Source of the DNA: a virus
Virus record (IMG/VR): IMGVR_UViG_3300037193_001286
Coordinates: 1 to 64,000 of that record
Length of the DNA stretch: 64,000 nt
Reading direction: 5' to 3' (one strand)
In this document: positions 3,955 through 39,244 of the stretch, piece by piece
Layout: the number at the start of each line of letters is the position of its first letter
Position numbering within the stretch: the stretch's first letter is position 1
Position numbers and translations under genes: made by a program
The notes under the pieces: model-generated
The model's input: only the letters and a program-made list of their open reading frames with translations
Told to the model about the DNA's origin: nothing
The model's database searches: none

Positions 3955-4220
3955 GACTGTTTTACCCCTGTTGTTACCCCGAGCAAAAATCGAAATCGCT
4001 AAGTGATTGAAATGATTGCATACCCAGGATTATGGCGGAAAACGAAGGAGCAACCGCTGAGGTAACTTTTTTACCCCCAGTAGACAACAGCGCTCCCGAT
4101 ATTTCTCCTGATTATCCAATCATATCAATACTATGTACATCACAGTTGACGACACCGGAAAACAGCTGTAATCATACCCCAGCGGTACACGATTTACCCC
4201 GGACTTTTTACCCCAAGGAA
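3955..4220. promoter_or_regulatory. putative attP with integrase arm-type repeats
   Basis: TTACCCC/ATACCCC repeats near 3962, 3974, 4071, 4174, 4194 and 4208 directly upstream of int; IHF-like sites near 3999-4011 (minus strand) and 4123-4135. Confidence 0.55.
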
Positions 4221-4226
4221 GCACCC

Positions 4227-5537
4227 ATGACCAAGTCAACCAAGCGGCAGCTGACAGACATCGCTGTCCGAAATGCGACATCGACCGACAAGCGTCAGGA
4301 GATACCTGACGGCTTCGTCTCCGGCCTCTATCTGGTCGTGCAGCCCTCCGGCAAAAAGTCTTGGGCCATGCGCTACAAGTTCGGGGATCGCAACATCAAG
4401 CAGACCATCGGTTCCTACCCGGAAGTCTCGCTTGGCAAAGCCCGCGAACAGGCGAAGACGATTTCCGAGTGCCGGGAAATGGGCGGCAACCCGCTTGCCG
4501 ACATCGTGATCCAGAAGGACAACAATCTCCTAGAAGTCGTATTCGAGAAGTTCCTAACCCTGCACGTCGAGAAGAAGAATTCGGCGGGCACCGCCTCTCG
4601 CCGCCGCAACGTCTTCCACCGCGAGATCGAGCCGCGCTGGAAAGGACGTGTCGTTCAGTCGATCAAGCGCCGCGACATCATCGACATGCTGGATGAGATC
4701 GCCGAACGCGCGCCGGTCATGGCCAACCGCATCCACGGCTTCCTGCGCAAATTCTTCAACTGGTGCGTCGACCGCGAGTACATCGAGCACTCCCCGATGA
4801 ACCGGCTGAAGGCACCAGTGGACGAGGAAAGCCGCGACCGCGTCCTCGATCACGATGAACTCCGATTGGTATGGCTTGGCGCAGAGCGCATGGGTTATCC
4901 CTTCGGTCCTATCGTCCAAGCGCTCATCCTGTCGGCGCAGCGCCAGCAAGAAGTGGGCGCGATCAGCCGGAATGAATTGGGCGGCGCTCGCGAATTCGGC
5001 AGCAACACGCCAATGTGGACGATCCCGAAAGAGCGGACGAAGAACAAGAAGTCCGATCACATCGTCCCCCTCACCCCGATGCTCGACGACCTGTTCAGCG
5101 CCCAGCCGAAGATCATCGGCGATAAGGACTTCATCTTCACCTACACCGGCAAGCGCGCCGTCACCGGCTATAGCCATGCGAAGGACCGGCTCGACGATCT
5201 GATCCGTGCTGTCCAGCGCGAAGAAGCCAAGGCGCGCGGTGAGAACCCGTCGAAGGTTCCGCCGCTCGCACACTGGACGTTCCACGATCTTCGCCGGACG
5301 GCCGCGACCGGCATGGCCGCGCTCAAGGTCGATCCGCACGTCATCGAGGCGGTGATCAATCACAAGTCCGGCAACATCAAAGGCGTCGCCGCCGTGTACA
5401 ACCGCTATCAGTATTTCGATGAGAAATATGAGGCGTTGCTGAAGTGGGAGAACGCCGTTAAGCGGATCGTCACTGGCGAGGACAACGTCGTCTATCTCAA
5501 ATTCAACGTCGTGAACGACATGGATGGTAACGCGTGA
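4227..5537 (+). CDS. int: tyrosine integrase with Arm DNA-binding domain
   Basis: 'GLYLVVQPSGKKSW' Arm domain; catalytic R (SAQRQQE), K (TKN), HDLRR, H (INH) and Y (YNRY). Start placed at the ATG after AAGGAA. Confidence 0.93.
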   Translation: MTKSTKRQLTDIAVRNATSTDKRQEIPDGFVSGLYLVVQPSGKKSWAMRYKFGDRNIKQTIGSYPEVSLGKAREQAKTISECREMGGNPLADIVIQKDNNLLEVVFEKFLTLHVEKKNSAGTASRRRNVFHREIEPRWKGRVVQSIKRRDIIDMLDEIAERAPVMANRIHGFLRKFFNWCVDREYIEHSPMNRLKAPVDEESRDRVLDHDELRLVWLGAERMGYPFGPIVQALILSAQRQQEVGAISRNELGGAREFGSNTPMWTIPKERTKNKKSDHIVPLTPMLDDLFSAQPKIIGDKDFIFTYTGKRAVTGYSHAKDRLDDLIRAVQREEAKARGENPSKVPPLAHWTFHDLRRTAATGMAALKVDPHVIEAVINHKSGNIKGVAAVYNRYQYFDEKYEALLKWENAVKRIVTGEDNVVYLKFNVVNDMDGNA

Positions 5538-6074: not shown

Positions 6075-6293
6075 TTACGATCCGACCACGACTCCCGGAG
6101 CGACCAGACCGGCGAACTGAAGCAGCACCACGACGGCGATCAGGACGCCGATCACCATGGCGACGACCTTGATCACCCGCCCGATAGGATCGGCAACCGG
6201 GAGATGGTCAACCGCATAGTTGATCAGCCAGACGACAACGCCGATCACCAGCAAAGTGACGGCAAGCGATATCAGTCCAGAGACGGTGAGCAT
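6075..6293 (-). CDS. small two-TM membrane protein
   Basis: AAGGAGG RBS; two hydrophobic helices. Confidence 0.6.
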   Translation of the reverse strand: MLTVSGLISLAVTLLVIGVVVWLINYAVDHLPVADPIGRVIKVVAMVIGVLIAVVVLLQFAGLVAPGVVVGS

Positions 6294-6415
6294 GGCTACC
6301 TCCTTGATGGAGGCGCGGCGACAGAAAACCGCGCCTCCTAGCCGGGCAGATACCGGGTGGCTGAATGTCGATCCCAACCGCCACCACGGCGACTGGGCAT
6401 TCAGCACTCTGCCGA

Positions 6416-6705: not shown

Positions 6706-7983
6706 CTACGTCGGTTTGTAGAACCGTATCCAATCGAGGGCCATGTCGCAGGGGAACGTCGTGTCGGTCGTCGGATCGCCCGGCCAACTGCCGCCCAGCG
6801 CCATGTTCAACAGCACATACCATGAGGCGGTCGGTGCGCGGTTCTCCATCTCCACCGTCTTCTTGCCGTCGATGTCAAAGACCAGACGCTGCGCGCCTAG
6901 CTCGATCCCGAAGGTGTGAAAGGCCGTCAGGTCTTCGGTGATTCCGAGCGCACGGATGTCGATGGGATAACCCAACTGCTGATGGCTGCCAGCCGCGCTC
7001 GACCAGTGCTGCGTCGTATAGAAGGTCCAAGCGTTATGACCGGAGTTGATCGGCCATTCCATCATGTCGATTTCCGGTGGCCAGTTAAAAGGCGGCATCG
7101 GCATTAGCCAGAACGCGGGCCATGCGGCGCGCTCGCCAAGAACCGGCATGGCAAACCGGGCTTCCACCCGGTCGCCGACCGTAACGGTGCGCAGCTTCCG
7201 GGATGTGATCATCGACGCGGTGTGCTTGAACGGCTCATATCCGATCACCTCCTTGGTCGTCGGCTCGACAACCGGCCGCCATGGGCAGAGCGTCGTCTTT
7301 CCGGCTGCATCCAGAACGCCGTCCGGGAAGTGTTCGGAGCGGAGAATTCGCTTGCCACTGACAATGGGGATTGGATCGGTTGCCGGATATAAGGCCGGAT
7401 CCACATAAAGCCCCAGCTCCTTATTGCCAGGCTGCGTCCGGCCGTGGGCTGGCCGTGATTGCCAGCAAGGCGAACCGTCTGGCGCTAACCCGGTATCGGT
7501 CGCCTGAAATCCGTCGATGAAGTTTGTCTCGTAGGCGACGGCAAACCCGGATTTGACGCCTGACGGAACGGTATCGCTAAAGGTGATCTTGCCGATCTGC
7601 CTCGCCACCGAAGCCCCGGCGATCGTCGAACTCAGGACTACCTCGATAGTTTTGCCGGGTGCATTGTTTCCCTTGAGCTGGATGACGATGTCCTGCTCTG
7701 TGGCCTCGCCCGGATGAAAGATGAACTTGCCAGACGCCCGAAGGTAGTTGGTGCCCTCATTGGTGCCGACGCCATTGCGCGTCAGCCACGAGCCGATGAC
7801 GGTATTACGGGGACTGCCGCTAAGCGAAAGCTTCAGGCGCGCTTCCAGCGCGTTCGGTAAGACGATGGCATCCGCAATAGTCACCTTGATCGATGTGGAT
7901 GCTTTCTCCGCAGTCAAGAAGTCCAGCCACCGCGAATTGAAGCCGATCAGATAGTCGATGTCTGGCGTGGATAGACGGGTCAT
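6706..7983 (-). CDS. GH16 endo-beta-glycanase (ExsH/laminarinase-like) with N-terminal Calx-beta-like domain
   Basis: 'WPAFWLMP...WPPEIDMME' (ExDxxE catalytic motif), 'FHTFG' and 'LNMALGGSWPG'. Confidence 0.8.
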   Translation of the reverse strand: MTRLSTPDIDYLIGFNSRWLDFLTAEKASTSIKVTIADAIVLPNALEARLKLSLSGSPRNTVIGSWLTRNGVGTNEGTNYLRASGKFIFHPGEATEQDIVIQLKGNNAPGKTIEVVLSSTIAGASVARQIGKITFSDTVPSGVKSGFAVAYETNFIDGFQATDTGLAPDGSPCWQSRPAHGRTQPGNKELGLYVDPALYPATDPIPIVSGKRILRSEHFPDGVLDAAGKTTLCPWRPVVEPTTKEVIGYEPFKHTASMITSRKLRTVTVGDRVEARFAMPVLGERAAWPAFWLMPMPPFNWPPEIDMMEWPINSGHNAWTFYTTQHWSSAAGSHQQLGYPIDIRALGITEDLTAFHTFGIELGAQRLVFDIDGKKTVEMENRAPTASWYVLLNMALGGSWPGDPTTDTTFPCDMALDWIRFYKPT

Positions 7984-8115
7984 AGCGAGTCCTTCCATGG
8001 GGAGTGGGCGTCATCTCGACGGCCGTTAATTTCAGAGGATGCCAGCGATCATGATGCTGCCGACCAACAATGCGGCGAGCACGAGAATCACGATGGCTTC
8101 GCTCTGGTGCATGGT

Positions 8116-8430
8116 TCACTGTCCGCTTGGCGGAACCCTCTTGCCTTCAAGAAGCGCGATCCTGCGGCGCAGATGGCGGATTGTGTTTTCCTGTCGCATC
8201 GCCAGCTTCTCTGCGATCACCAGTTCGTCACGCTGGCGCTGGATGATAGCGTTCAGTTCGCCGCGCTCCTCCTGCAACTGGTCGGTCAACTCTCGGAAGC
8301 CAGTCGTTATGGAAGAACCGAGATCGACGCGCGTTCGCGACCGCGCGACATAGACCGTTCCGAAGACGGTGACGATTGCGGTCACGACAGCGCCGCCAAA
8401 CGTGAGCAACGGAGCAAGGTCGAAATCCAC
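8116..8430 (-). CDS. single-TM coiled-coil protein, holin-like candidate
   Basis: N-terminal TM followed by a coiled coil; lies in the lysis cassette. Confidence 0.5.
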   Translation of the reverse strand: MDFDLAPLLTFGGAVVTAIVTVFGTVYVARSRTRVDLGSSITTGFRELTDQLQEERGELNAIIQRQRDELVIAEKLAMRQENTIRHLRRRIALLEGKRVPPSGQ

Positions 8431-8433
8431 ATC

Positions 8434-8619
8434 TCATTCCTTCGGCTCGACCGTCTCGACGAATTTCTGATGCTCGTTATGCATTCGTTCGATGTGTTCT
8501 TGAAAGGCGGTCGCTATTTCCTCTTTCGCTTGCCGGATCGAAATCCGGTAAGTGATGATTCCGCAGCTGATGGCAACTACGAACGTTGCGGTGACGGTGA
8601 CGAAGGCCGACATATCCAT
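8434..8619 (-). CDS. small single-TM protein
   Basis: Abuts the stop codon of the upstream gene; N-terminal hydrophobic helix. Confidence 0.5.
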   Translation of the reverse strand: MDMSAFVTVTATFVVAISCGIITYRISIRQAKEEIATAFQEHIERMHNEHQKFVETVEPKE

Positions 8620-9000
8620 TTATCCGGTCCTTTGCAGTCTGCGATCCGCAAGATAGTCGTTGATGACCATGCCCGCCGTTATGACAGAGACGGCAGCCAT
8701 TGCCGCGCGGATCAGGATGTCCAGACGGTACACGCCGGTAAACAGAGTGACGACCGATGTCAGGTGCGAAAGCCCGCATAGAAAAATGAATGCGCCGAAC
8801 AGGAGGCGCATCGAAGGCCTGATGCGGGTGCGCGGCACTTGCTTGATGAAAATCAGTGATATGCCGATGGCGAAGTATGCGGCGAACGTCGAGAGATCGG
8901 CGAGCACGTAAAGGAAGATCATCAGCGGATCGTTGGTGAGGCAGATCGCATGCTGGCTATAGCGCTCCGCGCCGAAAAAATTCAGAATGTTATTCCACAT
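8620..9000 (-). CDS. stand-alone ETR1-type ethylene/Cu-binding domain (3 TM)
   Basis: 'ADLSTFAAYFAIG...LLFGAFIFLCGLSHL...AAVSVITA' aligns to ETR1 'SDFFIAIAYFSIP...VQFGAFIVLCGATHL...AVVSCATA'; D35/Y42/I45/I72/C75/H79 correspond to ETR1 D25/Y32/I35/I62/C65/H69. Confidence 0.75.
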   Translation of the reverse strand: MWNNILNFFGAERYSQHAICLTNDPLMIFLYVLADLSTFAAYFAIGISLIFIKQVPRTRIRPSMRLLFGAFIFLCGLSHLTSVVTLFTGVYRLDILIRAAMAAVSVITAGMVINDYLADRRLQRTG

Positions 9001-9463
9001 TGCGCACTACCTCGAATGGGAACTGAACGAGCACGTCCTGTTGCGAGTGCGTCGGGCACGAGCTATCGACGACTGAGCGATAAAGCCACCGACCGGGATA
9101 AACGCTTTCCGGCAGCTGAATATAGATTGTGGCATCGTCGGTTCGCTTGATCTCGGTCGACATGATGGGGCGACTGAGCACCACTGTTACTGGCGGCCCT
9201 CCCCCTTGATAGGTGAAGCTGGAAATGATTGTGCCGGGACAGGAGGCATTCCGCCGCGTGGACATCCGATAATGGAGGGCACCCCTGTAAGGAACGCTCT
9301 GGGAAATGTCGCTTGGCCCTTCGGTGACCTGGACGACCGGCCCCTCGACCGCGAAGTTATAGAGCACGCCGAACGAGATCGCCCCGGCAATAAGCGCAAC
9401 GCCTGCCGCCTGAGCGAACCAATACCACACGGTCGCGAGATATGCGGGGAACCTCATCGGCAC
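8990..9463 (-). CDS. membrane-anchored protein with probable periplasmic beta domain
   Basis: One N-terminal TM and two Cys; AGGAGG RBS; overlaps the ethylene-binding-domain gene. Confidence 0.6.
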   Translation of the reverse strand: MPMRFPAYLATVWYWFAQAAGVALIAGAISFGVLYNFAVEGPVVQVTEGPSDISQSVPYRGALHYRMSTRRNASCPGTIISSFTYQGGGPPVTVVLSRPIMSTEIKRTDDATIYIQLPESVYPGRWLYRSVVDSSCPTHSQQDVLVQFPFEVVRNVE

Positions 9464-9466: not shown

Positions 9467-9682
9467 CTACTTCCAGCACTTCTGCGCCCGGCCGAACGCA
9501 TTGTGTGCGGCGACGCCCTTCCCTGTGGGCGTCAATTCCGGATCACTTGCCAACTTGACGGCTCCTCCGGGGACTACGGGAATCTTCCTCCACCCCGCGC
9601 AATTGCTGGCATTCGTCGTGCACCCCGCCACCAAGAAGCTCATTGCAAAGAGCAATGCCATCCAAACCTTGAATCCTGTCAT
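9467..9682 (-). CDS. o-spanin (Rz1-like lipoprotein)
   Basis: Lipobox LVAGC; overlaps the i-spanin in another frame. Confidence 0.7.
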   Translation of the reverse strand: MTGFKVWMALLFAMSFLVAGCTTNASNCAGWRKIPVVPGGAVKLASDPELTPTGKGVAAHNAFGRAQKCWK

Positions 9683-9839
9683 CGATCCGCTCCCTTTTTT
9701 CGATAGCGGCTATCGTGTCCTTCAATTGCTCTGTCCGCAGATCGCTACGGCCCTTCAGATAGCCAGCGCCGAACAACAGCACGGCGGCGATAAGTACCCC
9801 GGCGACAGCGCCCCATCTGCCGGTCAACAGAGCGATCAC
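9543..9839 (-). CDS. i-spanin (Rz-like)
   Basis: N-terminal TM plus helical domain, directly after the endolysin. Confidence 0.65.
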   Translation of the reverse strand: MIALLTGRWGAVAGVLIAAVLLFGAGYLKGRSDLRTEQLKDTIAAIEKRERIDDRIQGLDGIALCNELLGGGVHDECQQLRGVEEDSRSPRRSRQVGK

Positions 9840-10708
9840 GCCAGAGCCTCCTCATTCAGATTGAGCGCATCGACCAGGCGCTCCTTCTTGCGCTTGGCAT
9901 ACCAGCGATAAGCGATCCCGCCAGCAGCGAGCATGGCACCGCCGATGGCGAGCACGGCAACTGTCGTCGTGATCCAGTCCCCGGCCGAACTGAATGGCGT
10001 GAGTTGTTCCTGCAAGGTTTGCAGGGTGCCAGCTATACCTCCGGCACCAATGCCGCCGCCTGTCGCCGCATCGGCGGGTGCTGGCGATGGCGGCTGCTGA
10101 GCGTCTTCGATCTGCGCCTTGTTCTCGCCCCCCGCGATGAAGGCGACCTGCGCGACTTGCTTGCTGCCTTCGGCTTCTGCCTTTCCGATCTTGCGGACGC
10201 TCTCGACTCGTCTTGTCCAGCCGCCAGCGAACGTCGGCCATGGCTTGAGCGCCTTCAGAAATGACATGCGACGGTCGCACATTCGGTCGACCAATGCCGC
10301 GTGATTTTCCGTAGCGTCAATCGCGGCAAGAGTGCCAACCCCGATTACGCCATCGATCTTGCCGTGATAGGTCGAGCCAAGCGCCCGCTGTAGCCACTTG
10401 ATCGACTGTCTTGGACCACTGTTTACGGCCCCGTCAAAGACCGCGTAATCGACGCCTTTGGGGAGCTTGTCGCCCTGTATCGTAACCCAATATTGCTCGC
10501 GATAAATTTCGTCGCGCTCGTGCGCCGTCATCTGCTTGACTGAACGCGTCGGCAGTTTCTTACGGCGTCGATAGGCATCGTAAACGCGCTGCGTCACGCC
10601 CTGGTTGGTGGCCCCGCCCGGATCGAGCGGATGGTTGCTGTATCCGCCCTCATGGACGAGCACCCGCGCGAGACATGTCTTGAAGCGTGTGGATCGTGTG
10701 GTAGCCAC
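9836..10708 (-). CDS. GH108 endolysin with PG-binding domain and C-terminal TM
   Basis: 'HEGGYSNHPLDPGGATNQGVT', 'FDGAVNSG' and 'FAGGWTRRV'. Confidence 0.9.
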   Translation of the reverse strand: MATTRSTRFKTCLARVLVHEGGYSNHPLDPGGATNQGVTQRVYDAYRRRKKLPTRSVKQMTAHERDEIYREQYWVTIQGDKLPKGVDYAVFDGAVNSGPRQSIKWLQRALGSTYHGKIDGVIGVGTLAAIDATENHAALVDRMCDRRMSFLKALKPWPTFAGGWTRRVESVRKIGKAEAEGSKQVAQVAFIAGGENKAQIEDAQQPPSPAPADAATGGGIGAGGIAGTLQTLQEQLTPFSSAGDWITTTVAVLAIGGAMLAAGGIAYRWYAKRKKERLVDALNLNEEALA

Positions 10709-12657: not shown

Positions 12658-15600
12658 TTAATAACCGTGCGCCGACCAGTCGAAGGTGCGCGCGGCAGCG
12701 ATAAGCGCACCCCCGTTCAAAAGTTCTAGGTCGAAGCCGGTTCTTGACTTGTTGGTGATGCGGAATGTGTCGCCAGCGACGCCATTCTGAATCGCTACGG
12801 ATATCGACGGCGTGTAGGAGAATTTCACAGTGAAGTTGACGCGCATCTTGGCTTGCGTCCAAGCGACGTCGGCACCCTGCTCCATCTTCGAAGAGACGTC
12901 GGCGATGATCGACAATTCCTCGACGGCGACGTTCTGCCCGTCCGGCGCGTCCAGCCACGCCTGAAACTGGAAGCCGCGCCCGATGTACTCGCCGGATATG
13001 AACTGCGCCCATGGGGACCATACCGCTGTCCCCGACGCCGGATCGTTATCGGTCTGGCGAACGCGGATCGAAACCATCCCATCGCCGTCGTCAAATGTGC
13101 TGTCGAAGCTCTGATAATTGTCCACCAGACCGTTGCGCTGGTCGATGAAGACGTCGGACTCGTAAAACGGGAAGGCCAGCATATCGACGGAAAGGATGAC
13201 CGGAAAAACGCCGCCCATGTCGATCCTGTTGCTGAACGTATAGATGCCGGTTCCCACGTTCTCGTCGGTAATGACAATCCATTCCTGCGGTAGGCGGATT
13301 GAGACGTTGGATTTGCTGCCAGCCCATGTCGGGCTTTCGCTGATGCGGATGTATTGCTTGATCCGCTGCGTCGTAAGATTCGTTACGACTGTGCTGGCAT
13401 TGGCGGAAAAGATGCCGCTGATGTCGATGGCTTTGATGAGATACGTCCCCGGACGATAGGGCAATTCCGCCGTCGTCGCCGTGCCGGGGATTGAGGTGAG
13501 AACCTTGTTCGCGTTCACCCACGTCACGCCGCTGGTGCGCGACGAGTGGCGAATTTCGTAAGCACCGCCAATCATGACATCGAGTTCGGCAGACGGTGCC
13601 CACTGGAAAAGCGCGATGTCGCCTTTGACCTGAATGCGGAAATTGGCGACGTCGGCAGGTGGTGCGGTGCGCCCAATGACGGTGTACTTGATCTTTGTCG
13701 TAGCGCCGCGCCGACCGAGCATGCTGATCGGCGTCACCCATATATCGTAGTCGCCCTCCTGAACCTCGATATCGTGTGCCGTCTGGTCGACGCGCGTCCT
13801 GATCCAGTTGCCGTCCTTCGGCCGCCAGGCGATCTCGAACGCTGGCGCGGCCGATTGCCACGAAACCAGCATGCGAACGCCGATGGATATGGGCGACAGA
13901 GCGACAAGATAGTCTTTCGCATTGAGGCCGGAGATGCCCGGCACGCCGCCGATATTGGAGATGTCGACCTTCGGGAGGGGAACGTTCTTTTCGACGTATG
14001 CCCACTTTTCCGGCAGATGCCGAACCGCCGTCATTTCGTAGCGGTCACTTTCGCGTTGCCGGGCGGTCATGACGCGCCAGAGCGTCGGATTAAGATCGCT
14101 CGATGCAATCACGTAAATTGTGTCGGGCAATGGTGCCGTCGTAAAGGAGACGCCAAGCACTGTCCGCGATCCGGCCGAGGCGGTTACCTGCGATGTCGCC
14201 ACCGTCCCGTCAGGCAGCACGCATGAAGCGTAATAGACGCGTCCGGATACGATGGTGATCGGCGCATCGAGCGTCAGCTGCGTCTTCGTCGCCGCGACAA
14301 GCCTGCCGCCCCGGCGCTCGCCGCCGATATTGACATCCGCCACTTTGACGATGTCGCCCGGCCGCGCCCATGCCGCCTCAAGCCCGGCCACGAAATCGAC
14401 CGTCTCGGCTTCATAGTTGTCGGTGTACATCGCCCATTTGCCGACACGGATAGCCTGAGCTTCAGACGTGCAGCCGATGGCGTCGATTTCCTCGCGCAGC
14501 AGACCGTATTTGGAAATCGACGTGACATCCTCGACGAGGGCTGGCCGCCGCTCGCCCAGATTTTCCGGGTCGTTCCAGTAGACGGTGTACATGTTATGAC
14601 GGGCGCGAACGTCGCCACCGTGATAGTTGAATGCGCCGTCGATGACGTTGGCGTTGGTATAGAGCGCGACGGGATCGGACGGCATGTCGGCGATGGCGAC
14701 CATCTGCCCGCCAGACCAGTAGGTGGCACCCCGGAAGACAGAGGCCATAGAGGCAAGAAGATCGAACGCTTCCTGTTGGGAGCTGATCACCGCGTTACAG
14801 GTGAAGCGCGGCTCGGTTCCTCCTTGCCCGTTAGGCACCAGCCCATCGCACCACTGGGCGATCTTGTAGAGCGTCCATTTGTCGATATCGGTAGCCTTGA
14901 CGAAATCGCCGAGGCCGTAGCGACTTTGCGTCACAAGATCATAGAAAACCCACGCCGGATTGTTGGTCCATGCCTGCTTGAATGTCCCGGTCCATGTGCC
15001 TGTATACTTCCGCGTCTCCGGGTCGTAGTTCGATGGCACCTGCACCAAGAGGCCCTTGATGTCGTAGGTGCGCTTCGGGATCGACTGAAATTGCTCCGCG
15101 TCGATGGTCACGCCCATCACGGCAGACAGCGTGTAGTTCACCTTCGAATCGATGATCGACGTGAAGGAATCCCAATAGAGATCGTTTTGCAGTTTCAGTT
15201 GCGTCGAGTCGGCGGTGATGCGCCTGATCTGGATATCCCACGGCGGATTCCCGATCAGGTCGAATGTCAGGGATCGCTGGTAGCGGGTGTTCGTCTTGCC
15301 GCTGATCTCATGCCGGGTGACCAGCTGATAGCCGCCGCCATTCGACTGCAAATATATTTCGAAGATCAGGCTGGTGCCTCTGATGTCGCCGTCGTCTTCC
15401 TGCCTCTGAAGTGCCGGAACAGAGACCGTGACGCGACAGCGATCAATATCCCCGTTTATGATCGTGCGGGTGATCGGGGTCGTAGTCTTGACTTGCAGGT
15501 TTACGGCGGTTTCCGCCTGTTGCGCGGCAAAGCCCGACAGTAGCGGTTGGTCCGGCCAACCAGAGTTCCCGGCGATTGTCCAGTTCGAAAAGTTAGACGT

Positions 15601-15819
15601 TCCGTCAGCGTTCTCAACCGGCACGCCGTCGAAATAAACCGACTTCGCACCATCGACCGGGCCGACGATAGGCCCCTCGCTCAAAAGGTCGATGATGCGA
15701 GCGGTCTGTCTCGACTTCAGCGAGTTCGGGGCTTCGGTTCCGCCGCCGCCACCGCGACCGCGTTTACCGCCACCACCACTACCCGCAATGATCGCCGGGA
15801 ACTGGGAACGCATGTTCAT
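12658..15819 (-). CDS. tail tip / host specificity protein J
   Basis: 'IIDLLSEGPIVG', 'AWTNNPAWVFYD' and 'EPRFTCN' lambda J motifs. Confidence 0.9.
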   Translation of the reverse strand: MNMRSQFPAIIAGSGGGGKRGRGGGGGTEAPNSLKSRQTARIIDLLSEGPIVGPVDGAKSVYFDGVPVENADGTSNFSNWTIAGNSGWPDQPLLSGFAAQQAETAVNLQVKTTTPITRTIINGDIDRCRVTVSVPALQRQEDDGDIRGTSLIFEIYLQSNGGGYQLVTRHEISGKTNTRYQRSLTFDLIGNPPWDIQIRRITADSTQLKLQNDLYWDSFTSIIDSKVNYTLSAVMGVTIDAEQFQSIPKRTYDIKGLLVQVPSNYDPETRKYTGTWTGTFKQAWTNNPAWVFYDLVTQSRYGLGDFVKATDIDKWTLYKIAQWCDGLVPNGQGGTEPRFTCNAVISSQQEAFDLLASMASVFRGATYWSGGQMVAIADMPSDPVALYTNANVIDGAFNYHGGDVRARHNMYTVYWNDPENLGERRPALVEDVTSISKYGLLREEIDAIGCTSEAQAIRVGKWAMYTDNYEAETVDFVAGLEAAWARPGDIVKVADVNIGGERRGGRLVAATKTQLTLDAPITIVSGRVYYASCVLPDGTVATSQVTASAGSRTVLGVSFTTAPLPDTIYVIASSDLNPTLWRVMTARQRESDRYEMTAVRHLPEKWAYVEKNVPLPKVDISNIGGVPGISGLNAKDYLVALSPISIGVRMLVSWQSAAPAFEIAWRPKDGNWIRTRVDQTAHDIEVQEGDYDIWVTPISMLGRRGATTKIKYTVIGRTAPPADVANFRIQVKGDIALFQWAPSAELDVMIGGAYEIRHSSRTSGVTWVNANKVLTSIPGTATTAELPYRPGTYLIKAIDISGIFSANASTVVTNLTTQRIKQYIRISESPTWAGSKSNVSIRLPQEWIVITDENVGTGIYTFSNRIDMGGVFPVILSVDMLAFPFYESDVFIDQRNGLVDNYQSFDSTFDDGDGMVSIRVRQTDNDPASGTAVWSPWAQFISGEYIGRGFQFQAWLDAPDGQNVAVEELSIIADVSSKMEQGADVAWTQAKMRVNFTVKFSYTPSISVAIQNGVAGDTFRITNKSRTGFDLELLNGGALIAAARTFDWSAHGY

Positions 15820-16223
15820 TAGGCATTCTCCGGAATCCAACGCCGCTTGGACCGACCAGGCGGATAGTAGGTTTCAGGATCGGGTAACGGCGGCGGCGGC
15901 TCCTGCCGCAGCGCCTGGATGCTTTGAGTGATCTCATCCGACGTCGTCTGCTCCGATGCGGTCTGATCGGATGTGCCGATCTCGCTTGGCTCCGCTGCGG
16001 GGGTTGGCGTTGGAGTCGGTGCTGCCGGTTCCGGCGCTGGTGCAGGAGTAGGCTCTGGCGTCGGCGCTGGTTGCGACGGCTCCGGGGTTGGAGTCGGAGT
16101 AGGCGTCGGCGCTGGAGTCGGCGTCGGAGTGCCGGGAGTGGCCGGGGTGGCAGGCGTAGCCGGAGTGGCTGGTACAGCCGGATCGGTAGCCTGTGATTTT
16201 GCTTTACGCGTAGCCATGCTCAT
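15819..16223 (-). CDS. Pro/Thr-rich low-complexity protein
   Basis: AGGAGG RBS; (PAT)n/(PT)n repeats; TAATG coupling to J. Confidence 0.55.
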   Translation of the reverse strand: MSMATRKAKSQATDPAVPATPATPATPATPGTPTPTPAPTPTPTPTPEPSQPAPTPEPTPAPAPEPAAPTPTPTPAAEPSEIGTSDQTASEQTTSDEITQSIQALRQEPPPPLPDPETYYPPGRSKRRWIPENA

Positions 16224-18268: not shown

Positions 18269-18657
18269 GCGGTCACCCCGTAGGCTTTGACGAACTCGGC
18301 GGAAAGCGTGCCCCAGAACTCAGGCACCTTCACCCACCCCACCCGTTTGTTGCGCTTGTAAGTCCAGTCGACCTTCCATTTGTCGCACCAGACCTGGTGC
18401 AGGTTGCCGGTCGGCTGCTCCTTGAATAGGAAGGAGCTGCCTTTGCGCGCGATCAGGTAGGCGACCATCGCCTCGACCACGTCCTTCGGCCGGTTTTCCC
18501 AAGTGAGCGTCCACTTCATGTCGACGGCGTTGATGCCATCGAGCGTCCGCTGGGCGTAGCCATCACCGAAGCTGGCGACGCGCAGTCGCACGTCTTGCTG
18601 CCGACCGATGGTCGGGATGTCCGGGATCCAGCAAGTGACTGTTCCGTCGAAGGCCAT
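18265..18657 (-). CDS. minor tail protein M (distal tail)
   Basis: 'FGDGYAQR..DGIN'. Confidence 0.85.
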   Translation of the reverse strand: MAFDGTVTCWIPDIPTIGRQQDVRLRVASFGDGYAQRTLDGINAVDMKWTLTWENRPKDVVEAMVAYLIARKGSSFLFKEQPTGNLHQVWCDKWKVDWTYKRNKRVGWVKVPEFWGTLSAEFVKAYGVTA

Positions 18658-21575
18658 TACGCAGGAACCCTCCGCAATAAACCGCCCGGCCGCGACTCGC
18701 GGACTATTTCGGCTTGGATCAGCTTCTGAATGTTGGCACCGAATTGCCGCGCGCTGTCGTTGTCGGCGGCGACCGATCCGGAGCGCGACATGTCGATGGA
18801 AATGTTGCCGAGCGAGGTGGATGAATTGTCGATGTAAGCGCCGCCAGTCTTGCCGACCATGTTGCGCGGGATGACTGCCTCGCCAGCCTGTAGGATCGCC
18901 GGATACTCATTCGGCAGGAGGCCGTTGTGCAGACGCGGCGCGTTGGCAAACAGCGCTGGTGACACGCGCCGCCTCGGTCCGCTCCATGCCGGTCCAACGA
19001 TGCCGCCGCCGTGCATGGTCGGAGCTGCCGGGAATGGAAGGCCGGGAATAATCCCGCCGCCGCCGAACATCCCGCCCAAGACGCCGCCAAGCGCGTTCTT
19101 GGCGAACAGCGCCTCGATCGCCATGTTGATCAGGCCGTCGATGACGCGATCCAGCATGTTCCTGAAGGCATCACCCGCCGAAACGCCATTGCGCAAATCA
19201 TTGACGAAGCCGGAGACCGCTGTCTGCGCCGTCTGGATGATCTGTTGATTGTACCGCTCTTGTTCAGCCGACAGCTGCTTCTGGGATCGCTGGAAGGCGT
19301 CCATTTGAGCCTTCGCAGTGGCAATTGCTGTCGTCTGTTGCAGAATGGCCTGGCTTTGCGCGGTGGTGACGGTCGCCCCCTGAGTGCGCAGTTGCTGCTC
19401 GATCCTCAGAGCTTCATTGGCGGCTTCTTGAGACACCTTGTTTTGATCGATGGCGACGCTTGACGCACCGAGCTGCACTACTTGTTGCGACAGCAGCGCG
19501 CTTTCCTCGCGCAGAGATTGAATGCGCGCCTCGAAACTTTCCGCCTGTTTAGACGCCTCCTGCATCCCCTTGATGCGGCCGTATTCGTCAGCCTGTCTCT
19601 TGAGTTCGGCAGTCTCGGCAGCTGTCAGCGTCCGCCCTTCTTCCGCCGCCTTCTTCGTCGCTTCGCGGCTGAGTTCGGCGAACTTCAGAGCTGCTTCTTC
19701 CTTGGCGACCTTCTGATCGATCCCGGCGTTGATCTCGCCGCGAATGGTCGCTTGTTCCCGGAGCGCCGAGTTCTCTTCGGCGATGTCGGACGCGCCTACA
19801 GTGGCCGCTGCGCCAGAGACCTTCTGCTGAAAAGCAGCAATCGTTTCAGCGACGGTGCGACCGCCGATCAAAGTCGGATTGAGTTCCGCTACGCGCCCGC
19901 CGAGGACATCGGCCGCACGCGCGTTGGGATTGGCCGACAGGAGTTTTGTCGCACCCCCTGGTCCAAGCACATGCGCCATGTAGCGCGATACATTGTTGAG
20001 GGCGACGCCATGCTTGGTGAGGATGGCGTCGTTCTGGCGAGTGAACTCGTCGAAGGCCGCTTTCTGAACGGCGACGTTGTTCTTTTGCGCCCTGATCTGC
20101 TCTGTCGTCAGCCCTGCGAATTGAGGCAGCGATTTCAGATACGGGATCAACCCCTCAAAGGTCTTGTTGATGAACTGAAAGAGGCCGCTTGCCGATGAGT
20201 TCGGATTCTGCGCGTTTGGTCTGCCGCCAGATTCAAGCTTGGAGACGATTTTCGCGTAGTCATCAAGACCGCCGACCGCGAGGTTGGCGAAATCCATTGC
20301 CGCCTGTGTGCCGATCTCTTGCAGCGCGTTGGCTTTGGCGAGGTTGGCGGCATAGATTTCCGCCTGGCCGTTGGCGTTCGCCAGCGCGAGCCTGTGCTGT
20401 TCCAGCACTTGCTGCACCTTGTCCAGCGCTGGCTTGCCGATCTTCTCTATCGCCTCGACAGCCTTGTTGTATTCCTTCTGCGCGTCTTCCGCCCGCTTCG
20501 CCTTTTCGGCCGAACCATCAAGTCCCTTTGTTAATTGGTTCGTCGCTTTCTCGTTCTTGACGATCTCGGCGATCAGCGTGCGCATGTTCCCGATGACGTC
20601 ACGGACGTCCGGACCGGCCGTGAGGAAGGCCTTCGCCAGCGCCTCGTCGAGTTCCACGAAGCTTACCGCGCCCTTGTCGGCTTGCTCGACCATCGCCTGC
20701 AGTTCGGGCGACAGGGCGCTGAACTCTTCGGCTATTCTTGCGACGCCGATGGCGGCTTGACCGGCCGCCGTTTTCAGGCCATCCCATTCCTCGCGTATCG
20801 CCTTGATGGCGGCGGAATCGTTAGCTTCGACGGCGGCCCTCATCTTCTGGGTAAGTTCTTGGACCTTCGCCAGAGCCGCCCGGCTGGCGTTCGGATCGAA
20901 CTCCATTGACGTTTCGAAGACCTGGGTGCGGAACCCTTCTCTCAGCTTTTGATATGCATCCCGCTGGGCCAATGCATTGGCGTCGGCGACCGCCTTGCTC
21001 GTTTCCCCGAATTCCGTCAGCCCATCCATCGCATCGCCGTAGGCCTCTTTAAGACCTGAGATGACTTCGGAATGCCGCTTCCACATCTCATCCGCTTTTT
21101 CTGCTTCATTTGACGAGCTGCTGACGTATTCAATTGCCGCCTGCGTGAGGTAACCGAAGCCGAGAATGAGACCGGAGATTGCCAGCGACGCTGGACTTAG
21201 CAGCGAGCCAAATGCGCTCATGAGGCCTTTCAAGAGGCCACCCTTGCCCAGCTCGCCGACCGCCTGCTGTACCTGCCCCGCCTGCTGGACCATGATCGTG
21301 AATGGTGAGGTGCCGGATAGCAGCCCTTGAGTGATATCGTTCAGTTGGAAGGACAGGTTACGCACGCCCTGTTGCGCTTGTTTCGCTCCTTTCTCGACCG
21401 ACCTGCCGATGTTGTTCATCTGCTGATCGACCTCGCGGCCAGCGCCAGTGAAGCCCTTCTCAATGCTGTCGGTGGTCTGCTTCGTCAGAACGCCAGCACG
21501 CTTGAGGGTGTTTTCGAGGCTTTTGATATTCGCCTCAATTTGCAGGACCAGTCTGGTTTCTTCAGGCGTTGCCAT
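18657..21575 (-). CDS. tape measure protein with lytic transglycosylase domain
   Basis: 972 aa, helical; 'NLSFQLNDI...SPF..MVQQ' and SLT-like 'ESGG.PNAQNP.SSASGLFQF'. Confidence 0.9.
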   Translation of the reverse strand: MATPEETRLVLQIEANIKSLENTLKRAGVLTKQTTDSIEKGFTGAGREVDQQMNNIGRSVEKGAKQAQQGVRNLSFQLNDITQGLLSGTSPFTIMVQQAGQVQQAVGELGKGGLLKGLMSAFGSLLSPASLAISGLILGFGYLTQAAIEYVSSSSNEAEKADEMWKRHSEVISGLKEAYGDAMDGLTEFGETSKAVADANALAQRDAYQKLREGFRTQVFETSMEFDPNASRAALAKVQELTQKMRAAVEANDSAAIKAIREEWDGLKTAAGQAAIGVARIAEEFSALSPELQAMVEQADKGAVSFVELDEALAKAFLTAGPDVRDVIGNMRTLIAEIVKNEKATNQLTKGLDGSAEKAKRAEDAQKEYNKAVEAIEKIGKPALDKVQQVLEQHRLALANANGQAEIYAANLAKANALQEIGTQAAMDFANLAVGGLDDYAKIVSKLESGGRPNAQNPNSSASGLFQFINKTFEGLIPYLKSLPQFAGLTTEQIRAQKNNVAVQKAAFDEFTRQNDAILTKHGVALNNVSRYMAHVLGPGGATKLLSANPNARAADVLGGRVAELNPTLIGGRTVAETIAAFQQKVSGAAATVGASDIAEENSALREQATIRGEINAGIDQKVAKEEAALKFAELSREATKKAAEEGRTLTAAETAELKRQADEYGRIKGMQEASKQAESFEARIQSLREESALLSQQVVQLGASSVAIDQNKVSQEAANEALRIEQQLRTQGATVTTAQSQAILQQTTAIATAKAQMDAFQRSQKQLSAEQERYNQQIIQTAQTAVSGFVNDLRNGVSAGDAFRNMLDRVIDGLINMAIEALFAKNALGGVLGGMFGGGGIIPGLPFPAAPTMHGGGIVGPAWSGPRRRVSPALFANAPRLHNGLLPNEYPAILQAGEAVIPRNMVGKTGGAYIDNSSTSLGNISIDMSRSGSVAADNDSARQFGANIQKLIQAEIVRESRPGGLLRRVPA

Positions 21576-27121: not shown

Positions 27122-28572
27122 TCACCGCGTTCCTCGTGATAACGGTCGAAGAAGCCGCGCAAACTTACAGGCTGCCGACGCCCATCCTCGAATACGAAGA
27201 TGATACCGAAATTATCAATGTCCTCGATCACCTTTTCGATACCAGGACCAGTTGGCCCTGCCGGGCCGCGCGGTCCGCGTTCGCCCTGCTTGCCGCGACT
27301 GCCTGCCTTGGCCGCAAGCATCCAGCCATCACCGGGCAGCGGTCCGGGATTGTTCCGCCGTGCCATCCAAAGCGATCCGTCCATCGCTACGAAGTCTCGC
27401 GCCCGGTAGTCGGCATCGGGATCATAGAGGCCACGCGCTTCGCCGGGGTAGGTATCCTCACCCTTGAGAGCGACTGGTGCCCAATCCTCATGCGGCGGTC
27501 GCTTCGCCGTCAGGCAGCGCGCCGCCCATGTCGAGCCATCGCAGTGAACAAGCACGCCTTTCTCGTAAGCCCCGCCTTCCTCCCATACGAGAGGAGGATC
27601 GAAGGTGCCGCGTTCACCTTTTTCACCGCGTTCGCCCTTTGGGCCGGGTGGCCCTGCTTCGCCGCGCAAACCGCGAGGACCGGTTTCGCCTTGCGGTCCG
27701 GGATCGCCGCGTTCGCCGCGCTCACCCCGCTCGCCTTGCGGTCCTGGTTCGCCTCTCTCTCCTCTTTCACCGGCTGGACCGGTTTCGCCGCGCTCGCCTT
27801 TTTCACCGCGCTCGCCGCGTTCACCGGGATCGCCCTTTTCCCCCTTCTCACCGGGATCGCCACGTTCACCGGGTTCACCGCGCTCACCCTTTTCGCCTTG
27901 TGGACCTTGCTCGCCGGGCGGACCTTGCTCGCCGTCCAGCCCAGCCGGGCCGGGTTCACCTTGCGGCCCCTGTTCACCGGGATCACCTTTTTCACCTTTT
28001 TCGCCGGGTGGCCCCTGCTCGCCCTGCGGACCGGGTTCGCCATCCTTGCCAGCTGGACCAGCCTCACCGGGTTCACCCTTCTCACCCGGTTCACCTTGCA
28101 AGCCCCGCTCGCCCTGCGGACCGGGTGGTCCTGCTTCACCGGGATCACCGCGCTCGCCGGGTTCGCCGCGCTCGCCTTGTGGCCCTTGCTCGCCGCGTTC
28201 GCCAGCCGGACCTGTTTCGCCCGGATCGCCGCGCTCGCCCTTCTCACCCTGCTTGCCTCTTTCGAGCGCAGTCACGACTGCCAGTTTCTCGCGGATGTCG
28301 AGTGATAGTTCGCGGAAGTTTTGACGTTGTGTGTCGTGCTCACTTTCCATGCACACGACAACACGTTCCACCACGTCTGCGGTGATCTCCTCGATGAGGC
28401 CGTCAAGGCGCGTGCGCAGTTCGTCGGCGGTCCTGCCGGTTTCTTCTTCCCGCGCCATGATCTGATCAGCGATCTCGCGGACTTCATCGATACGGGCGTT
28501 CAGCTCCTTTTCGGCTTCACCTATTGCGAGGCCGCATGCCCTGAGAATGTGATCCTGGTCAAGCCGCATCAC
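27118..28572 (-). CDS. collagen-like protein with N-terminal coiled coil
   Basis: About 70 contiguous Gly-X-Y triplets and C-terminal carbohydrate-binding-like W/Y motifs. Start uncertain (28572 or 28602). Confidence 0.75.
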
Positions 28573-30064
28573 GCGCCTCTTTTCTCGCGCCACGGATGGC
28601 ATCCAGCGCGAACATGTCTTTCACCTGATCGGGGACGCCGTCCTTTTCTTCTTCCTCAGCTTCGGCCGCCGGCGGCGGCGCAGGCGGGGCTTCCGGAGCT
28701 TCCGGCGCTGGCGTTACCGGTTGCTCATTCTCTGTCTGCGCCCATGCCGACAGCGGAACGACTTGCTGCTGAACGCGCGGTTCTTTGCCATATCCGCCCG
28801 GAACGGCTGGCAGTTCCTCAGTGTTGCGGGCCTCGTCCGGTGCATAGATACCACCTTGCACGCCTCGCGCCAGTGCCTCGATCCGGTCCTTGTAAGCGAC
28901 GCGAAGAAGCGCGCGCGTATCAAATTCCACGTACTCATCAGGCCATCCCTTGAGGCCGAAGAACTGGTCGAACGCCACCTCGATGTGGTTGATCGCATAG
29001 CCGAGGCCACGAGAGAGCCAGAACTGCATCAGCGCTTCCGTCGAGGAAAACGTGCCCTTGTCGGCGAGACCGAGGATTGCTGGCGGGACGCCATAGACCA
29101 TGAAGATTTCGTCTTGCGTCAGCTTCAGCGCTTGGGCGACTTCCGAGTCCTTGGCGCTCATCGCCACGCCCTTGAACTTCATGCCGTTGGTGAGGATCGG
29201 CGGTCCCGCGTCGAGATTGTCGATGCCACGCCACGTCTCATTCAGCCGCGCGCGCAGTTCGGTGATTTGCTCCTTGGTGAAATTCAGATCGGTTTCGATC
29301 ACGCCGGGCGGGCGGTTCATGTTGCCGAAGAAGTTGATCAGCTGCTGGCCGATCAGGCGTTGCGCCATGATGGCGTCGGAAGCGTGCCGGAGCGGCGGCA
29401 CGCCCTTCAGCCAGTTGCCGCGTTCGGCTTCAAGCTTGACATGCAGCACGTCGCGCGCGGGCACGATCCGCTTCTTGTTCATGTGAGCGTAGCCGCCCAA
29501 TGAGACCGCCATCGGATCATAGCCAGCTGCGGAAACAGCGTCGGCCTCAAGGACGTTGTTGCCCGCCAGCTCATAGAAAATCTGCTGGTCATCGCCGACG
29601 ATTGCCTGTGATTGCCTTGGATCGAACGGATGCAGCGCGTCCACCTCGAAACGCGAATTGCGTGTGGCCAGGTGGTAGCTATTGCCGTCGATATAAAGGT
29701 TGCGGACGAGATTGAGGATGAAATCCGAACGCGACTGATAGTCGTTCGGATCTCTGAGGATCCGCGACAGCGCCGAATTGGTCACCCGCTCGCGCCCGCC
29801 GTCTCCGGTTGCGCGCCAGTGGTCACCGGGACACTGGGCTATCGTCTGGGCATAAGCTGAAACACATGCCTCGACCACTGCCGACACGCCGCCATTGCCG
29901 CGTATCGGATCGTAGTTCATTTGCCAGTAGTTCCAATGCTTACCCCATTCGTTCGGCAGAGCGCCGTCCGGGAAATGAACTACCCACGGTCCTTCGCGCG
30001 GCGCTCCCTCTTGTTTGGAAGCGCCTCGAAAAGGCTTGAGCAACGTGTCAAGCCAGCTTGCCAT
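28559..30064 (-). CDS. HK97-type portal protein
   Basis: 'LYIDGNSY', 'DVLHVK...GVPPL' and 'YGVPPAILG'. Confidence 0.92.
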
Positions 30065-38993: not shown

Positions 38994-39244
38994 TGAACGA
39001 TGATAACGACAACGTCACTCCCTTCCAAAAACGGAAACGGAAAACCCCTCCGGAGTACGGGCGACTGATTCCACCAGCAAGCAACGACCCCAGAGACCTT
39101 CTGATGGGGAGGATCATCGATCAGCTCTATCACCTGCAAAATCGCGTTGCATGGCAAGAGAGGATCAGCCTCGTGCTGTTTATCGCACTCGTTCTTGTGT
39201 CGTTAGGTGATGTGCTTCGGCTGATTGACAGGTGGCTGAAATGA
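38993..39244 (+). CDS. hypothetical membrane protein
   Basis: TGATG coupling; C-terminal TM. Confidence 0.45.
   Translation: MNDDNDNVTPFQKRKRKTPPEYGRLIPPASNDPRDLLMGRIIDQLYHLQNRVAWQERISLVLFIALVLVSLGDVLRLIDRWLK

What the first reader, a model, noticed from the sequence alone, without database searches (positions are those of the whole stretch)
8116..9463. Stand-alone ethylene-receptor (ETR1-type) binding domain inside a phage lysis cassette
Seen: the 126-aa, 3-TM ORF 8620-9000 contains 'ADLSTFAAYFAIG', 'FGAFIFLCGLSHL' and 'AAVSVITA', plus an N-terminal H-x-x-C motif. D35, Y42, I45, I72, C75 and H79 sit at a constant +10 offset from ETR1 D25, Y32, I35, I62, C65 and H69; only P36 is replaced by G. 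There is no GAF, kinase or other output domain. The gene follows the endolysin and spanins and is tightly packed with three single-TM ORFs (8990-9463, 8434-8619, 8116-8430). Known: these residues form the Cu(I)/ethylene site of plant ETR1; bacterial versions such as Synechocystis Slr1212 are fused to signalling domains; ethylene is a root hormone that controls nodulation. Inference: a rhizosphere phage may sense ethylene or copper at the membrane and adjust holin/antiholin-like partners (lysis timing), or may interfere with a host receptor by heterodimerising with it.
Basis: partly seen in the sequence, partly recalled or inferred. Interest (0 to 1): 0.9.

Follow-up and report, generated by a model that had tools for sequence, protein, structure and literature searches.

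The report
Phage stand-alone ethylene-receptor-type membrane protein
A complete soil phage of rhizobia-like bacteria carries, inside the gene cluster it uses to burst its host, a small membrane protein that is a true copy of the copper-binding membrane domain of plant and bacterial ethylene receptors but has no signalling part. It most likely helps to make or time the membrane lesion at lysis and does not relay a hormone signal; nothing about its function has been tested.

Summary
ORF 8620-9000(-) encodes a 126-aa, 3-TM protein that matches Pfam ETR1_N (PF25487) at 66 bits against a cut-off of 27. It keeps the Cu(I) ligands (C75, H79) and ends with no output domain.

The window is a complete 73.9-kb temperate siphovirus-like genome. 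The gene sits in one tightly coupled late operon: endolysin, i/o-spanin, u157, ETR1_N, d61, d104.

The protein belongs to an all-short clade (127 leaves in my tree). Every member whose context I could read lies in a phage or prophage. Robust cell-wall hydrolases of five families lie within 2 kb, including in the lytic marine Maribacter phage Molly.

C75 and H79 are invariant, and dN/dS (0.07-0.10) is the lowest in the cassette. But the Pro36 equivalent is Gly in 88% of the clade, and the Lys91 signal-output equivalent is non-basic in about half. The copper site is therefore kept, while ethylene sensing is doubtful.

A canonical holin (Phage_holin_10) co-occurs in one relative, so the protein may be an accessory (pinholin- or antiholin-like) and not the sole holin.

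No paper in the searched library describes this. The scan has made the same kind of find at least 8 times on other DNA. The function is untested.

The parts
9836..10708 (-). Endolysin: GH108 + PG_binding_3, Gly-rich linker, C-terminal TM (aa 248-266) with a weakly Phage_holin_10-like tail
   Evidence: Pfam PF05838 9.3e-28, PF09374 1.1e-10, PF23987 E 0.034. phrog_315 endolysin 4.3e-53. BLAST 7e-5 of the tail to the PF23987 holin of L020. The tail is conserved in L001-L004.
9543..9839 (-). i-spanin-like protein (98 aa, N-terminal TM)
   Evidence: phrog_12535 5.4e-13; weak Rz-like spanin PHROGs. Its start overlaps the endolysin stop by 4 nt.
9467..9682 (-). o-spanin-like lipoprotein (71 aa, lipobox LVAGC), overlapping the i-spanin gene in another frame
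   Evidence: phrog_37499 5.3e-6, Rz-like spanin phrog_1275 E 0.019; sequence.
8990..9463 (-). u157: N-in TM anchor plus a periplasmic Ig/FnIII-like beta-sandwich with two invariant Cys (SCPG, SxCP). A recurrent upstream partner of the ETR1_N gene. Likely true start is the ATG at 9457.
   Evidence: Alignment A2. AF2 pLDDT 82.6. Foldseek finds only generic Ig-like folds. Co-located with ETR1_N at 27-38% identity in L006, L007, L018 and L020. Its stop overlaps the ETR1_N start by 11 nt. Atlas clusters are 73-82% viral.
8620..9000 (-). Stand-alone ETR1_N protein (126 aa, 3 TM, predicted N-out/C-in). Cu(I)-ligand equivalents C75/H79; D35, Y42, I45, I72 kept; Pro36 equivalent is G46; Lys91 equivalent is R98; periplasmic H17-x-x-C20.
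8434..8619 (-). d61: 61-aa protein, N-terminal TM plus a short charged cytoplasmic helix
   Evidence: ORF and TM. Conserved in L001-L004 at 62-67% identity, with a weak match in L018. The ETR1_N stop abuts its start.
8116..8430 (-). d104: N-out TM plus cytoplasmic coiled coil. The most constant downstream partner of the ETR1_N gene.
   Evidence: Alignment A3. Found next to ETR1_N in L001-L007, L019 and L020. phrog_2658 'hol-like chemotaxis' 4.1e-6. An analogous TM+coiled-coil gene 64 precedes the ETR1_N gene 65 in phage Molly, but without detectable homology.

Best explanation
ORF 8620-9000(-) encodes a true but output-less member of the ETR1_N (ethylene-binding-domain) family, and it has become a phage lysis-cassette protein.

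Shown: it is made from the same tightly coupled late operon as the endolysin and spanins.

Predicted: it inserts in the inner membrane with three helices, N-terminus in the periplasm and a short basic tail in the cytoplasm. This is the class I holin topology.

Inferred from the invariant Cys75/His79 and mostly conserved Asp35: it keeps the intramembrane Cu(I) site.

Inferred: it oligomerises. Together with the TM/coiled-coil protein d104 and the periplasmic Ig-like protein u157, it forms or gates a small membrane lesion. That lesion decides when the membrane-tethered endolysin gets access to the wall, which is a holin-class role (pinholin- or antiholin-like accessory). It does not relay a signal to a kinase.

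Open: whether the copper site only stabilises the fold or lets a small ligand or the redox/copper state tune the timing.
For: Homology: PF25487 at 66 bits vs cut-off 27.

Clade: all-short, 127 leaves, no fused member.

Context: all 12 members with readable context are in viral contigs or prophages.

Operon: genes from the endolysin to d104 overlap or are 0-3 nt apart and have SD sites. No promoter-like or terminator-like site lies between genes; the one terminator-like hit lies inside the ETR1_N coding sequence and is within chance expectation.

Association with cell-wall hydrolases of different families, all within 2 kb:
- GH108: window, L001-4, L008
- PF11860 muramidase: L005, L020
- GH19: L006
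- Phage_lysozyme2: L007
- amidase, directly adjacent, in the lytic Maribacter phage Molly, for which the authors list no holin

Side of the hydrolase: the module lies upstream of the hydrolase in L007, L008 and Molly, and downstream in the window, L005, L006 and L020.

Origins: at least three separate viral short clades in the tree.

Selection: dN/dS 0.07-0.10, lower than the endolysin. C75 95/95 and H79 94/95.

Topology and charge distribution fit N-out/C-in with a basic tail.

Precedent for pore formation by this domain: rice OsERS1/2 conduct cations as homo-oligomers, independent of Cys65 (PMC13261662).

No canonical holin was found among the other TM ORFs of the window.
Against: There is no experiment of any kind.

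The protein matches no known holin family in Pfam, PHROGs or NCBIfam.

In the Chelatococcus prophage L020, a bona fide Phage_holin_10 gene sits in the same cassette. The window's own endolysin carries a holin_10-like tail. The ETR1_N protein therefore need not be the hole-former.

Holins are usually poorly conserved and lack invariant polar TM residues, unlike this protein.

The lysis cassette lies at the distal end of the late operon near the integrase, a place where morons also sit.

In four viral loci (L009-L012) no hydrolase was seen in the short flanks. In L013 the neighbour is only a DUF5675 protein.

The Phage_lysozyme2 protein of L007 could be a tail lysin.
Confidence: 0.5

Rival explanations
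1. It is the phage's main holin: a 3-TM class-I-type hole-former recruited from the ETR1_N fold. The copper site is only structural.
For: It is the only multi-TM protein in the window's cassette. It has N-out/C-in topology and a short basic tail. It sits in the holin position directly before the amidase in Molly, where no holin is annotated. No canonical holin exists elsewhere in the window. There is channel precedent for the domain.
Against: A canonical Phage_holin_10 co-occurs in L020, and a holin_10-like tail sits on the window's endolysin. Purifying selection is very strong and polar TM residues are invariant, both atypical for holins. No holin-family match.
Confidence: 0.2
2. One reading: a ligand-sensing module that binds plant ethylene (or copper) and shifts lysis timing through its holin/antiholin-like neighbours.
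For: Six of the seven ETR1 binding positions are kept, and D35, C75 and H79 are present. Bacterial ETR1_N domains with all seven positions do bind ethylene (AzoEtr1, PMC11819568). Near-identical DNA occurs in soil metagenomes. Ethylene increased OsERS1 currents.
Against: The Pro36 equivalent is Gly in 84/95 of the clade, against Pro in 164/170 sensors. The Lys91 equivalent is non-basic in about half of the clade. Relatives occur in marine Flavobacteriia phages and other non-plant habitats. No binding data exist.
Confidence: 0.12
3. A membrane cargo unrelated to lysis, for example superinfection exclusion or another envelope function of u157/ETR1_N/d61/d104, that merely travels next to the lysis genes.
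For: The position is at the end of the late operon near the integrase. u157 is a type II membrane protein with a periplasmic Ig-like domain, as some exclusion proteins are. No lysis family hit.
Against: There is no room for an own promoter or terminator, and the genes are tightly translationally coupled to the spanins. The module is present next to the amidase in a strictly lytic phage without an integrase. The association recurs with unrelated hydrolases on either side. No PADLOC hit.
Confidence: 0.13
4. A decoy that heterodimerises with a host ETR1_N sensor kinase and blocks or hijacks its signalling.
For: ETR1-type domains dimerise. Stand-alone ETR1_N genes sit beside separate sensor kinases in some bacteria (L049, L061, L063). 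Two prophage hosts also have a long ETR1_N sensor.
Against: Only 34/301 sampled genomes of the order have any ETR1_N gene, and the Bosea host has none apart from the prophage copy. The phage clade is diverged from the sensors. The linkage is to lysis genes, not to regulators.
Confidence: 0.05

Closest known systems
Ethylene-binding domain of ethylene receptors (Pfam PF25487 ETR1_N): Arabidopsis ETR1/ERS1, Synechocystis SynEtr1, Azospirillum AzoEtr1
   Same: Significant HMM match. Three TM helices. Cys/His Cu(I) ligands in TM2. Asp in TM1. Tyr and two Ile positions. The N-terminal extracytoplasmic Cys-containing segment.
   Different: No GAF, kinase, GGDEF or other output. The Pro36 equivalent is Gly. 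The Lys91 equivalent is Arg here and non-basic in half of the clade. The TM2-TM3 loop appears 3 residues shorter. Encoded by a phage next to lysis genes. Ligand binding is untested.
Class I holins (e.g. lambda S105) and pinholins (phage 21 S68)
   Same: Small inner-membrane protein with predicted N-out/C-in 3-TM topology and a short basic cytoplasmic tail. Encoded in the lysis cassette of a late operon. Small-residue-rich TM3.
   Different: No sequence or profile similarity to any holin family. No dual-start motif. Far stronger conservation, with invariant Cys/His. No functional data.
Accessory lysis regulators and antiholins (P2 LysA, P1 LydB, T4 RI)
   Same: Non-enzymatic membrane proteins in lysis cassettes that co-occur with a separate holin, as in L020.
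   Different: No homology. The Atlas lead from u157 to LydB failed both the HMM and the profile tests.
Rice OsERS1/2 'hormone receptor-type ion channels' (PMC13261662)
   Same: The same domain family is reported to conduct cations as a homo-oligomer. The N-terminal Cys is needed and the Cu-site Cys is not.
   Different: These are full-length plant receptors measured in oocytes and yeast. Nothing is known for the bacterial or phage proteins.

Membership tests
ETR1_N domain family (PF25487) | Profile match above the curated gathering score | tested here: met
   66 bits vs 27, E 3.7e-18. Same by six-frame search. 8118 representative relatives at E<=1e-3 with the clade profile.
ETR1_N domain family (PF25487) | Three transmembrane helices, N-terminus extracytoplasmic | tested here: met
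   AF2 helices 25-51, 62-88 and 91-125, pLDDT 86.4. Hydropathy. Orientation is inferred from the +5 charge of loop 52-64 and the basic C-tail (positive-inside rule).
ETR1_N domain family (PF25487) | Cu(I) ligands Cys65 and His69 in TM2 | tested here: met
   C75 and H79. 95/95 and 94/95 in the short family, 13/13 in viral loci, 170/170 in long sensors. Roles as given in PMC10266040 and PMC13261662.
Functional ethylene-binding domain (as defined for AtETR1, SynEtr1, AzoEtr1) | All seven residues required for ethylene binding in AtETR1 (Asp25, Tyr32, Ile35, Pro36, Ile62, Cys65, His69). 'Seven residues' is confirmed in PMC11819568; Asp25/Cys65/His69 in PMC10266040. | tested here: not met
   Six of seven are present. 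The Pro36 equivalent is G46: Gly in 84/95 of the clade, Pro in 96/98 and 68/72 long sensors.
Functional ethylene-binding domain (as defined for AtETR1, SynEtr1, AzoEtr1) | Asp25-Lys91 polar bridge that couples binding to output (PMC10266040) | tested here: inconclusive
   The window has D35 and R98. That column is K/R in 163/170 long sensors, but R39, V23, T20 and K5 of 95 in the short family. The equivalence of the column to Lys91 is inferred, not aligned to ETR1.
Functional ethylene-binding domain (as defined for AtETR1, SynEtr1, AzoEtr1) | Saturable ethylene binding and Cu(I) binding | not testable with these tools
   Needs a radioligand assay and a Cu(I) competition assay.
Ethylene receptor / ETR1_N sensor protein (signal transducer) | Cytoplasmic output domain (GAF, HisKA/HATPase, HWE_HK, PAS, GGDEF, STAS) after TM3 | tested here: not met
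   A stop follows residue 126. The whole clade is 106-163 aa. Cellular relatives of 380-930 aa carry PAS/HK domains.
Holins | Small membrane protein with at least one TM and a charged C-terminus, encoded beside the endolysin | tested here: met
Holins | Membership of a described holin family | tested here: not met
   No holin hit in Pfam, PHROGs or NCBIfam. In BFVD, only a Molly-like protein was found, at E 3e-3; holin models scored E about 1.
Holins | Lethal, energy-poison-triggerable hole formation that releases the endolysin | not testable with these tools
   Needs expression and lysis assays.

The most novel reading that the evidence does not exclude
A ligand- or redox-gated lysis clock. 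The Cu(I) site inside a pore-forming ETR1_N oligomer would let a small copper-binding molecule (ethylene or another alkene, O2, NO, CO, cyanide), or the cell's copper/redox state, open or hold shut the lesion that triggers lysis. This would be the first small-molecule-gated holin-class protein. It would also hint that the ancestral activity of the ethylene-receptor membrane domain is that of a channel.
Probability: 0.12. Interest if true: 0.9.

Novelty: new variant of a known kind. Interest (0 to 1): 0.66.

Why it matters
The ethylene-binding domain is known only as the input module of signalling proteins. Here it forms a sizeable, strongly conserved clade that exists only as a bare membrane domain in phages and is linked again and again to the enzymes that burst the host.

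That gives phage-lysis research an undescribed holin-class candidate with a metal site. It gives ethylene-receptor research a minimal, easily expressed version of the domain, useful for structure work, copper chemistry and the recently claimed channel activity.

If ligand or copper state affects lysis timing, this would be a new way for phages to read their environment.

Tried and rejected
- The protein-atlas search could not read d104.
- No solved structure of the ETR1 membrane domain matched the clade profile.
- The word-indexed search for longer relatives found one histidine kinase only.
- Foldseek of u157 against the PDB gave only generic Ig/FnIII folds, with no copper chaperone or cupredoxin among the listed matches.
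- The Atlas lead u157 ~ P1 LydB (score 0.87) was rejected: PF16084 has no hit in the virus record, and hhalign gives probability 0.7%.
- Molly gene 64 vs d104: no homology, only the same architecture.
- PADLOC: no hits.
- The 26-aa hydrophobic ORF after d104 is not conserved.
- No cultured close relative of the phage was found by tblastn of one tail-fibre-like protein.
- No RNA holder was listed for the region. One RNA run laid on it gave 0 reads from about 2% of the run, which is no test of expression.
- Literature searches for phage or holin together with ethylene receptor or ethylene-binding domain returned nothing relevant.
- Wang et al. 2006 (PMC1785413) is not held.
Full report
**What is there**

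The window is the first 64 kb of a 73,858-bp virus record with direct terminal repeats, rated complete. PHROG matches give a lambda-like late operon on the minus strand:
- large terminase, 44450-46057
- capsid/protease, 30490-32457
- portal, 28559-30064
- tape measure, 18657-21575
- central tail fibre J, 12658-15840

The late operon is followed by a tail-fibre gene and a lysis cassette. An integrase lies on the other strand at 4032-5537.

The lysis cassette holds these genes, in order:
- An endolysin at 9836-10708: GH108 + PG_binding_3 with a C-terminal TM.
- An i-spanin-like gene at 9543-9839.
- An overlapping lipoprotein gene at 9467-9682.
- Four small membrane-protein genes: u157 (8990-9463), the ETR1_N protein (8620-9000), d61 (8434-8619) and d104 (8116-8430).

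All junctions are overlaps or gaps of 0-3 nt, each with a Shine-Dalgarno sequence. No promoter-like or terminator-like site lies between the genes. The only terminator-like hit lies inside the ETR1_N coding sequence, and the total number of hits is below the shuffled expectation. The seven genes therefore read as one late transcription unit.

**Is it really an ethylene-receptor-type domain?**

Yes.
- Pfam ETR1_N matches at 66 bits (cut-off 27) over residues 27-113.
- AlphaFold2 with 38 relatives gives a confident model (pLDDT 86.4): two short N-terminal helices and three long TM helices.
- Loop 52-64 is strongly basic and the C-terminal tail is basic. The predicted topology is therefore N-out/C-in, as in ETR1.
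- C75 and H79 lie in TM2 with the Cys-x3-His spacing of the Cu(I) ligands Cys65/His69. D35 lies 40 residues before C75, as Asp25 does before Cys65 (numbering from PMC10266040 and PMC13261662).
- I could not align Arabidopsis ETR1 itself, because no tool returned its sequence.

**The family**

A word-indexed search found 96 clusters of 106-162-aa relatives, nearly all flagged PF25487. The named ones come from Rhizobium ruizarguesonis (80% identical), Mesorhizobium, Chelatococcus, Bradyrhizobium and Methylobacterium.

A full HMMER search with the clade profile found 8118 representative proteins. The best ~25 are all short, and after them come long sensor proteins.

In a FastTree of 328 domains, the window's protein lies in an all-short clade of 127 leaves (support 0.70). 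Two further all-short viral clades (L009/L011/L012, support 1.0; L008/L013) branch elsewhere among the sensors. Cellular relatives at 35-44% identity are the N-termini of 380-930-aa PAS/histidine-kinase proteins.

**Conservation**

Retained in the short family:
- C75: 95/95
- H79: 94/95
- Y42: 93/95
- I72: 95/95
- D35: 86/95

Altered in the short family:
- The Pro36 equivalent is Gly in 84/95. In long sensors it is Pro in 96/98 and 68/72.
- The column where sensors have a conserved Lys (K/R 163/170) is R39, V23, T20 and K5 of 95. I take this column to be Lys91 of ETR1, the partner of Asp25 in signal output (PMC10266040).

Other points:
- The N-terminal H17-x-x-C20 is general to bacterial ETR1_N domains (98/98 long sensors).
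- Pairwise dN/dS against four sister phages is 0.07-0.10. This is the lowest in the cassette; the endolysin is 0.15-0.23.

The metal site and fold are therefore under strong constraint. One ligand-binding position and the output bridge are not kept the way they are in receptors.

**Context elsewhere**

- Sister phages L001-L004 share the whole cassette.
- L006 (46% identity): GH19 endolysin with a hydrophobic tail, a 67-aa TM protein, u157, ETR1_N, d104.
- L007 (57%): tail genes, u157, ETR1_N, d104, then a Phage_lysozyme2 protein.
- L005 and the Chelatococcus prophage L020: PF11860 muramidase, a lipoprotein, a TM protein, (u157), ETR1_N, d104.
- The Bosea prophage L018: a probable PG-binding/GH19-like protein (both hits below cut-off), a 2-TM protein, u157, ETR1_N.
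- The Methylobacterium locus L019: ETR1_N and d104 in a decayed prophage.
- A low-GC viral contig, L008: a 171-aa ETR1_N protein 1.1 kb before a GH108 endolysin.
- The cultured lytic Maribacter phage Molly: its 289-aa ETR1_N protein (E 1.5e-16) lies directly before the amidase. It is preceded by a TM+coiled-coil protein with the architecture of d104 but no detectable homology to it. The authors list only the amidase as a lysis gene and no integrase (PMC8776804).

Five robustly identified hydrolase families (GH108, PF11860 muramidase, GH19, Phage_lysozyme2, amidase), on either side of the module, in temperate and lytic phages of two phyla: this is the kind of pattern by which holins are usually recognised.

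**What limits the holin reading**

- In L020 the TM protein just before u157 is a true Phage_holin_10 (44 bits, cut-off 27).
- The C-terminal tail of the window's endolysin resembles that holin's second TM and its basic stretch. A hole-former other than the ETR1_N protein may therefore be present.
- The ETR1_N protein hits no holin family.
- No canonical holin was found among the other TM ORFs of the window.

I therefore commit to a holin-class role in the broad sense: forming or gating the lesion, most likely as an accessory pinholin- or antiholin-like component working with d104 and u157. My confidence is about 0.5. The sole-holin version is a separate rival at 0.2.

A 2026 report that rice OsERS1/2 conduct cations as homo-oligomers, dependent on the N-terminal Cys pair and not on Cys65 (PMC13261662), is a precedent for pore formation by this domain. 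It concerns full-length plant receptors only.

**The partners**

- u157 is an N-in anchored periplasmic beta-sandwich with two invariant Cys (SCPG, SxCP). Foldseek finds only generic Ig/FnIII folds. An Atlas lead to the P1 antiholin LydB failed both tests.
- d104 is an N-out TM followed by a cytoplasmic coiled coil. L008 and L013 carry a coiled coil on the C-terminus of the ETR1_N protein itself.

- Lysis-timing control is compatible with the data.
- Ethylene as the signal is weakened by the Gly at the Pro36 position, the variable Lys91 position and the non-plant relatives.
- Interference with a host receptor is unlikely. Only 34 of 301 sampled genomes of the order have any ETR1_N gene, and the Bosea host has only the prophage copy.
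- Near-identical DNA occurs in soil metagenomes and in runs of a coded organism.

**Novelty**

The domain family and bacterial ETR1_N sensors are known (PMC7700396, PMC11819568). I found no paper linking the domain to phages or lysis.

Earlier notes of this scan report the same kind of find on at least eight other stretches of DNA, including a 126-aa rhizobial phage protein and Molly. I reached the same reading before opening them.

What I add here:
- the Pro36 and Lys91 contrasts
- the canonical holin in L020
- the holin-like endolysin tail
- the dN/dS ranking
- the tree
- the split cellular receptors
- the channel precedent

Noticed in passing
window 9836-10708 (-); L001-L004; L006:3999-5291: The GH108 endolysin ends in a Gly-rich linker plus a TM and a KRKKER stretch. 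This tail weakly resembles the Phage_holin_10 holin of L020. The tail is conserved in sister phages, and an analogous two-segment hydrophobic tail sits on a GH19 endolysin. This may be an endolysin-holin fusion or a membrane tether.
   Followed up: partly
window 6706-7998 (-) and 6075-6407 (-): Two genes lie between the ETR1_N module and the integrase. One is a 430-aa GH16-like protein (phrog_17064, E 1.8e-196). The other is a small 2-3-TM ORF (weak phrog_23151) whose likely true start is an internal Met, which would give about 72 aa. Their function is unknown.
   Followed up: no
L049:6914-9815, L061:788-4193, L063:6968-8117: In some cellular genomes (Exilibacterium, a Rickettsiales MAG, an alphaproteobacterial MAG), a stand-alone ETR1_N gene overlaps or abuts a separate PAS/CHASE histidine-kinase gene. 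These look like split receptors, in which the domain would signal in trans.
   Followed up: partly
window 8032-8112 (-): A 26-aa hydrophobic ORF starts 4 nt after the d104 stop. It is not conserved in L001-L007, so it is probably not a gene.
   Followed up: yes
window 38993-39244 (+): An 83-aa TM ORF scores 21 bits against Pfam ABA_GPCR (cut-off 22.1). This is probably chance similarity between TM segments.
   Followed up: no
L014:5872-6930: A viral contig encodes a 352-aa protein joining ETR1_N, a coiled coil and a STAS domain. This is a sensor-type architecture on a contig classed as viral.
   Followed up: no
window 9457-9463 (-): u157 more likely starts at the ATG at 9457 (AGGAGG 6 nt upstream) than at the GTG at 9463. 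The ESM Atlas record also starts there.
   Followed up: yes
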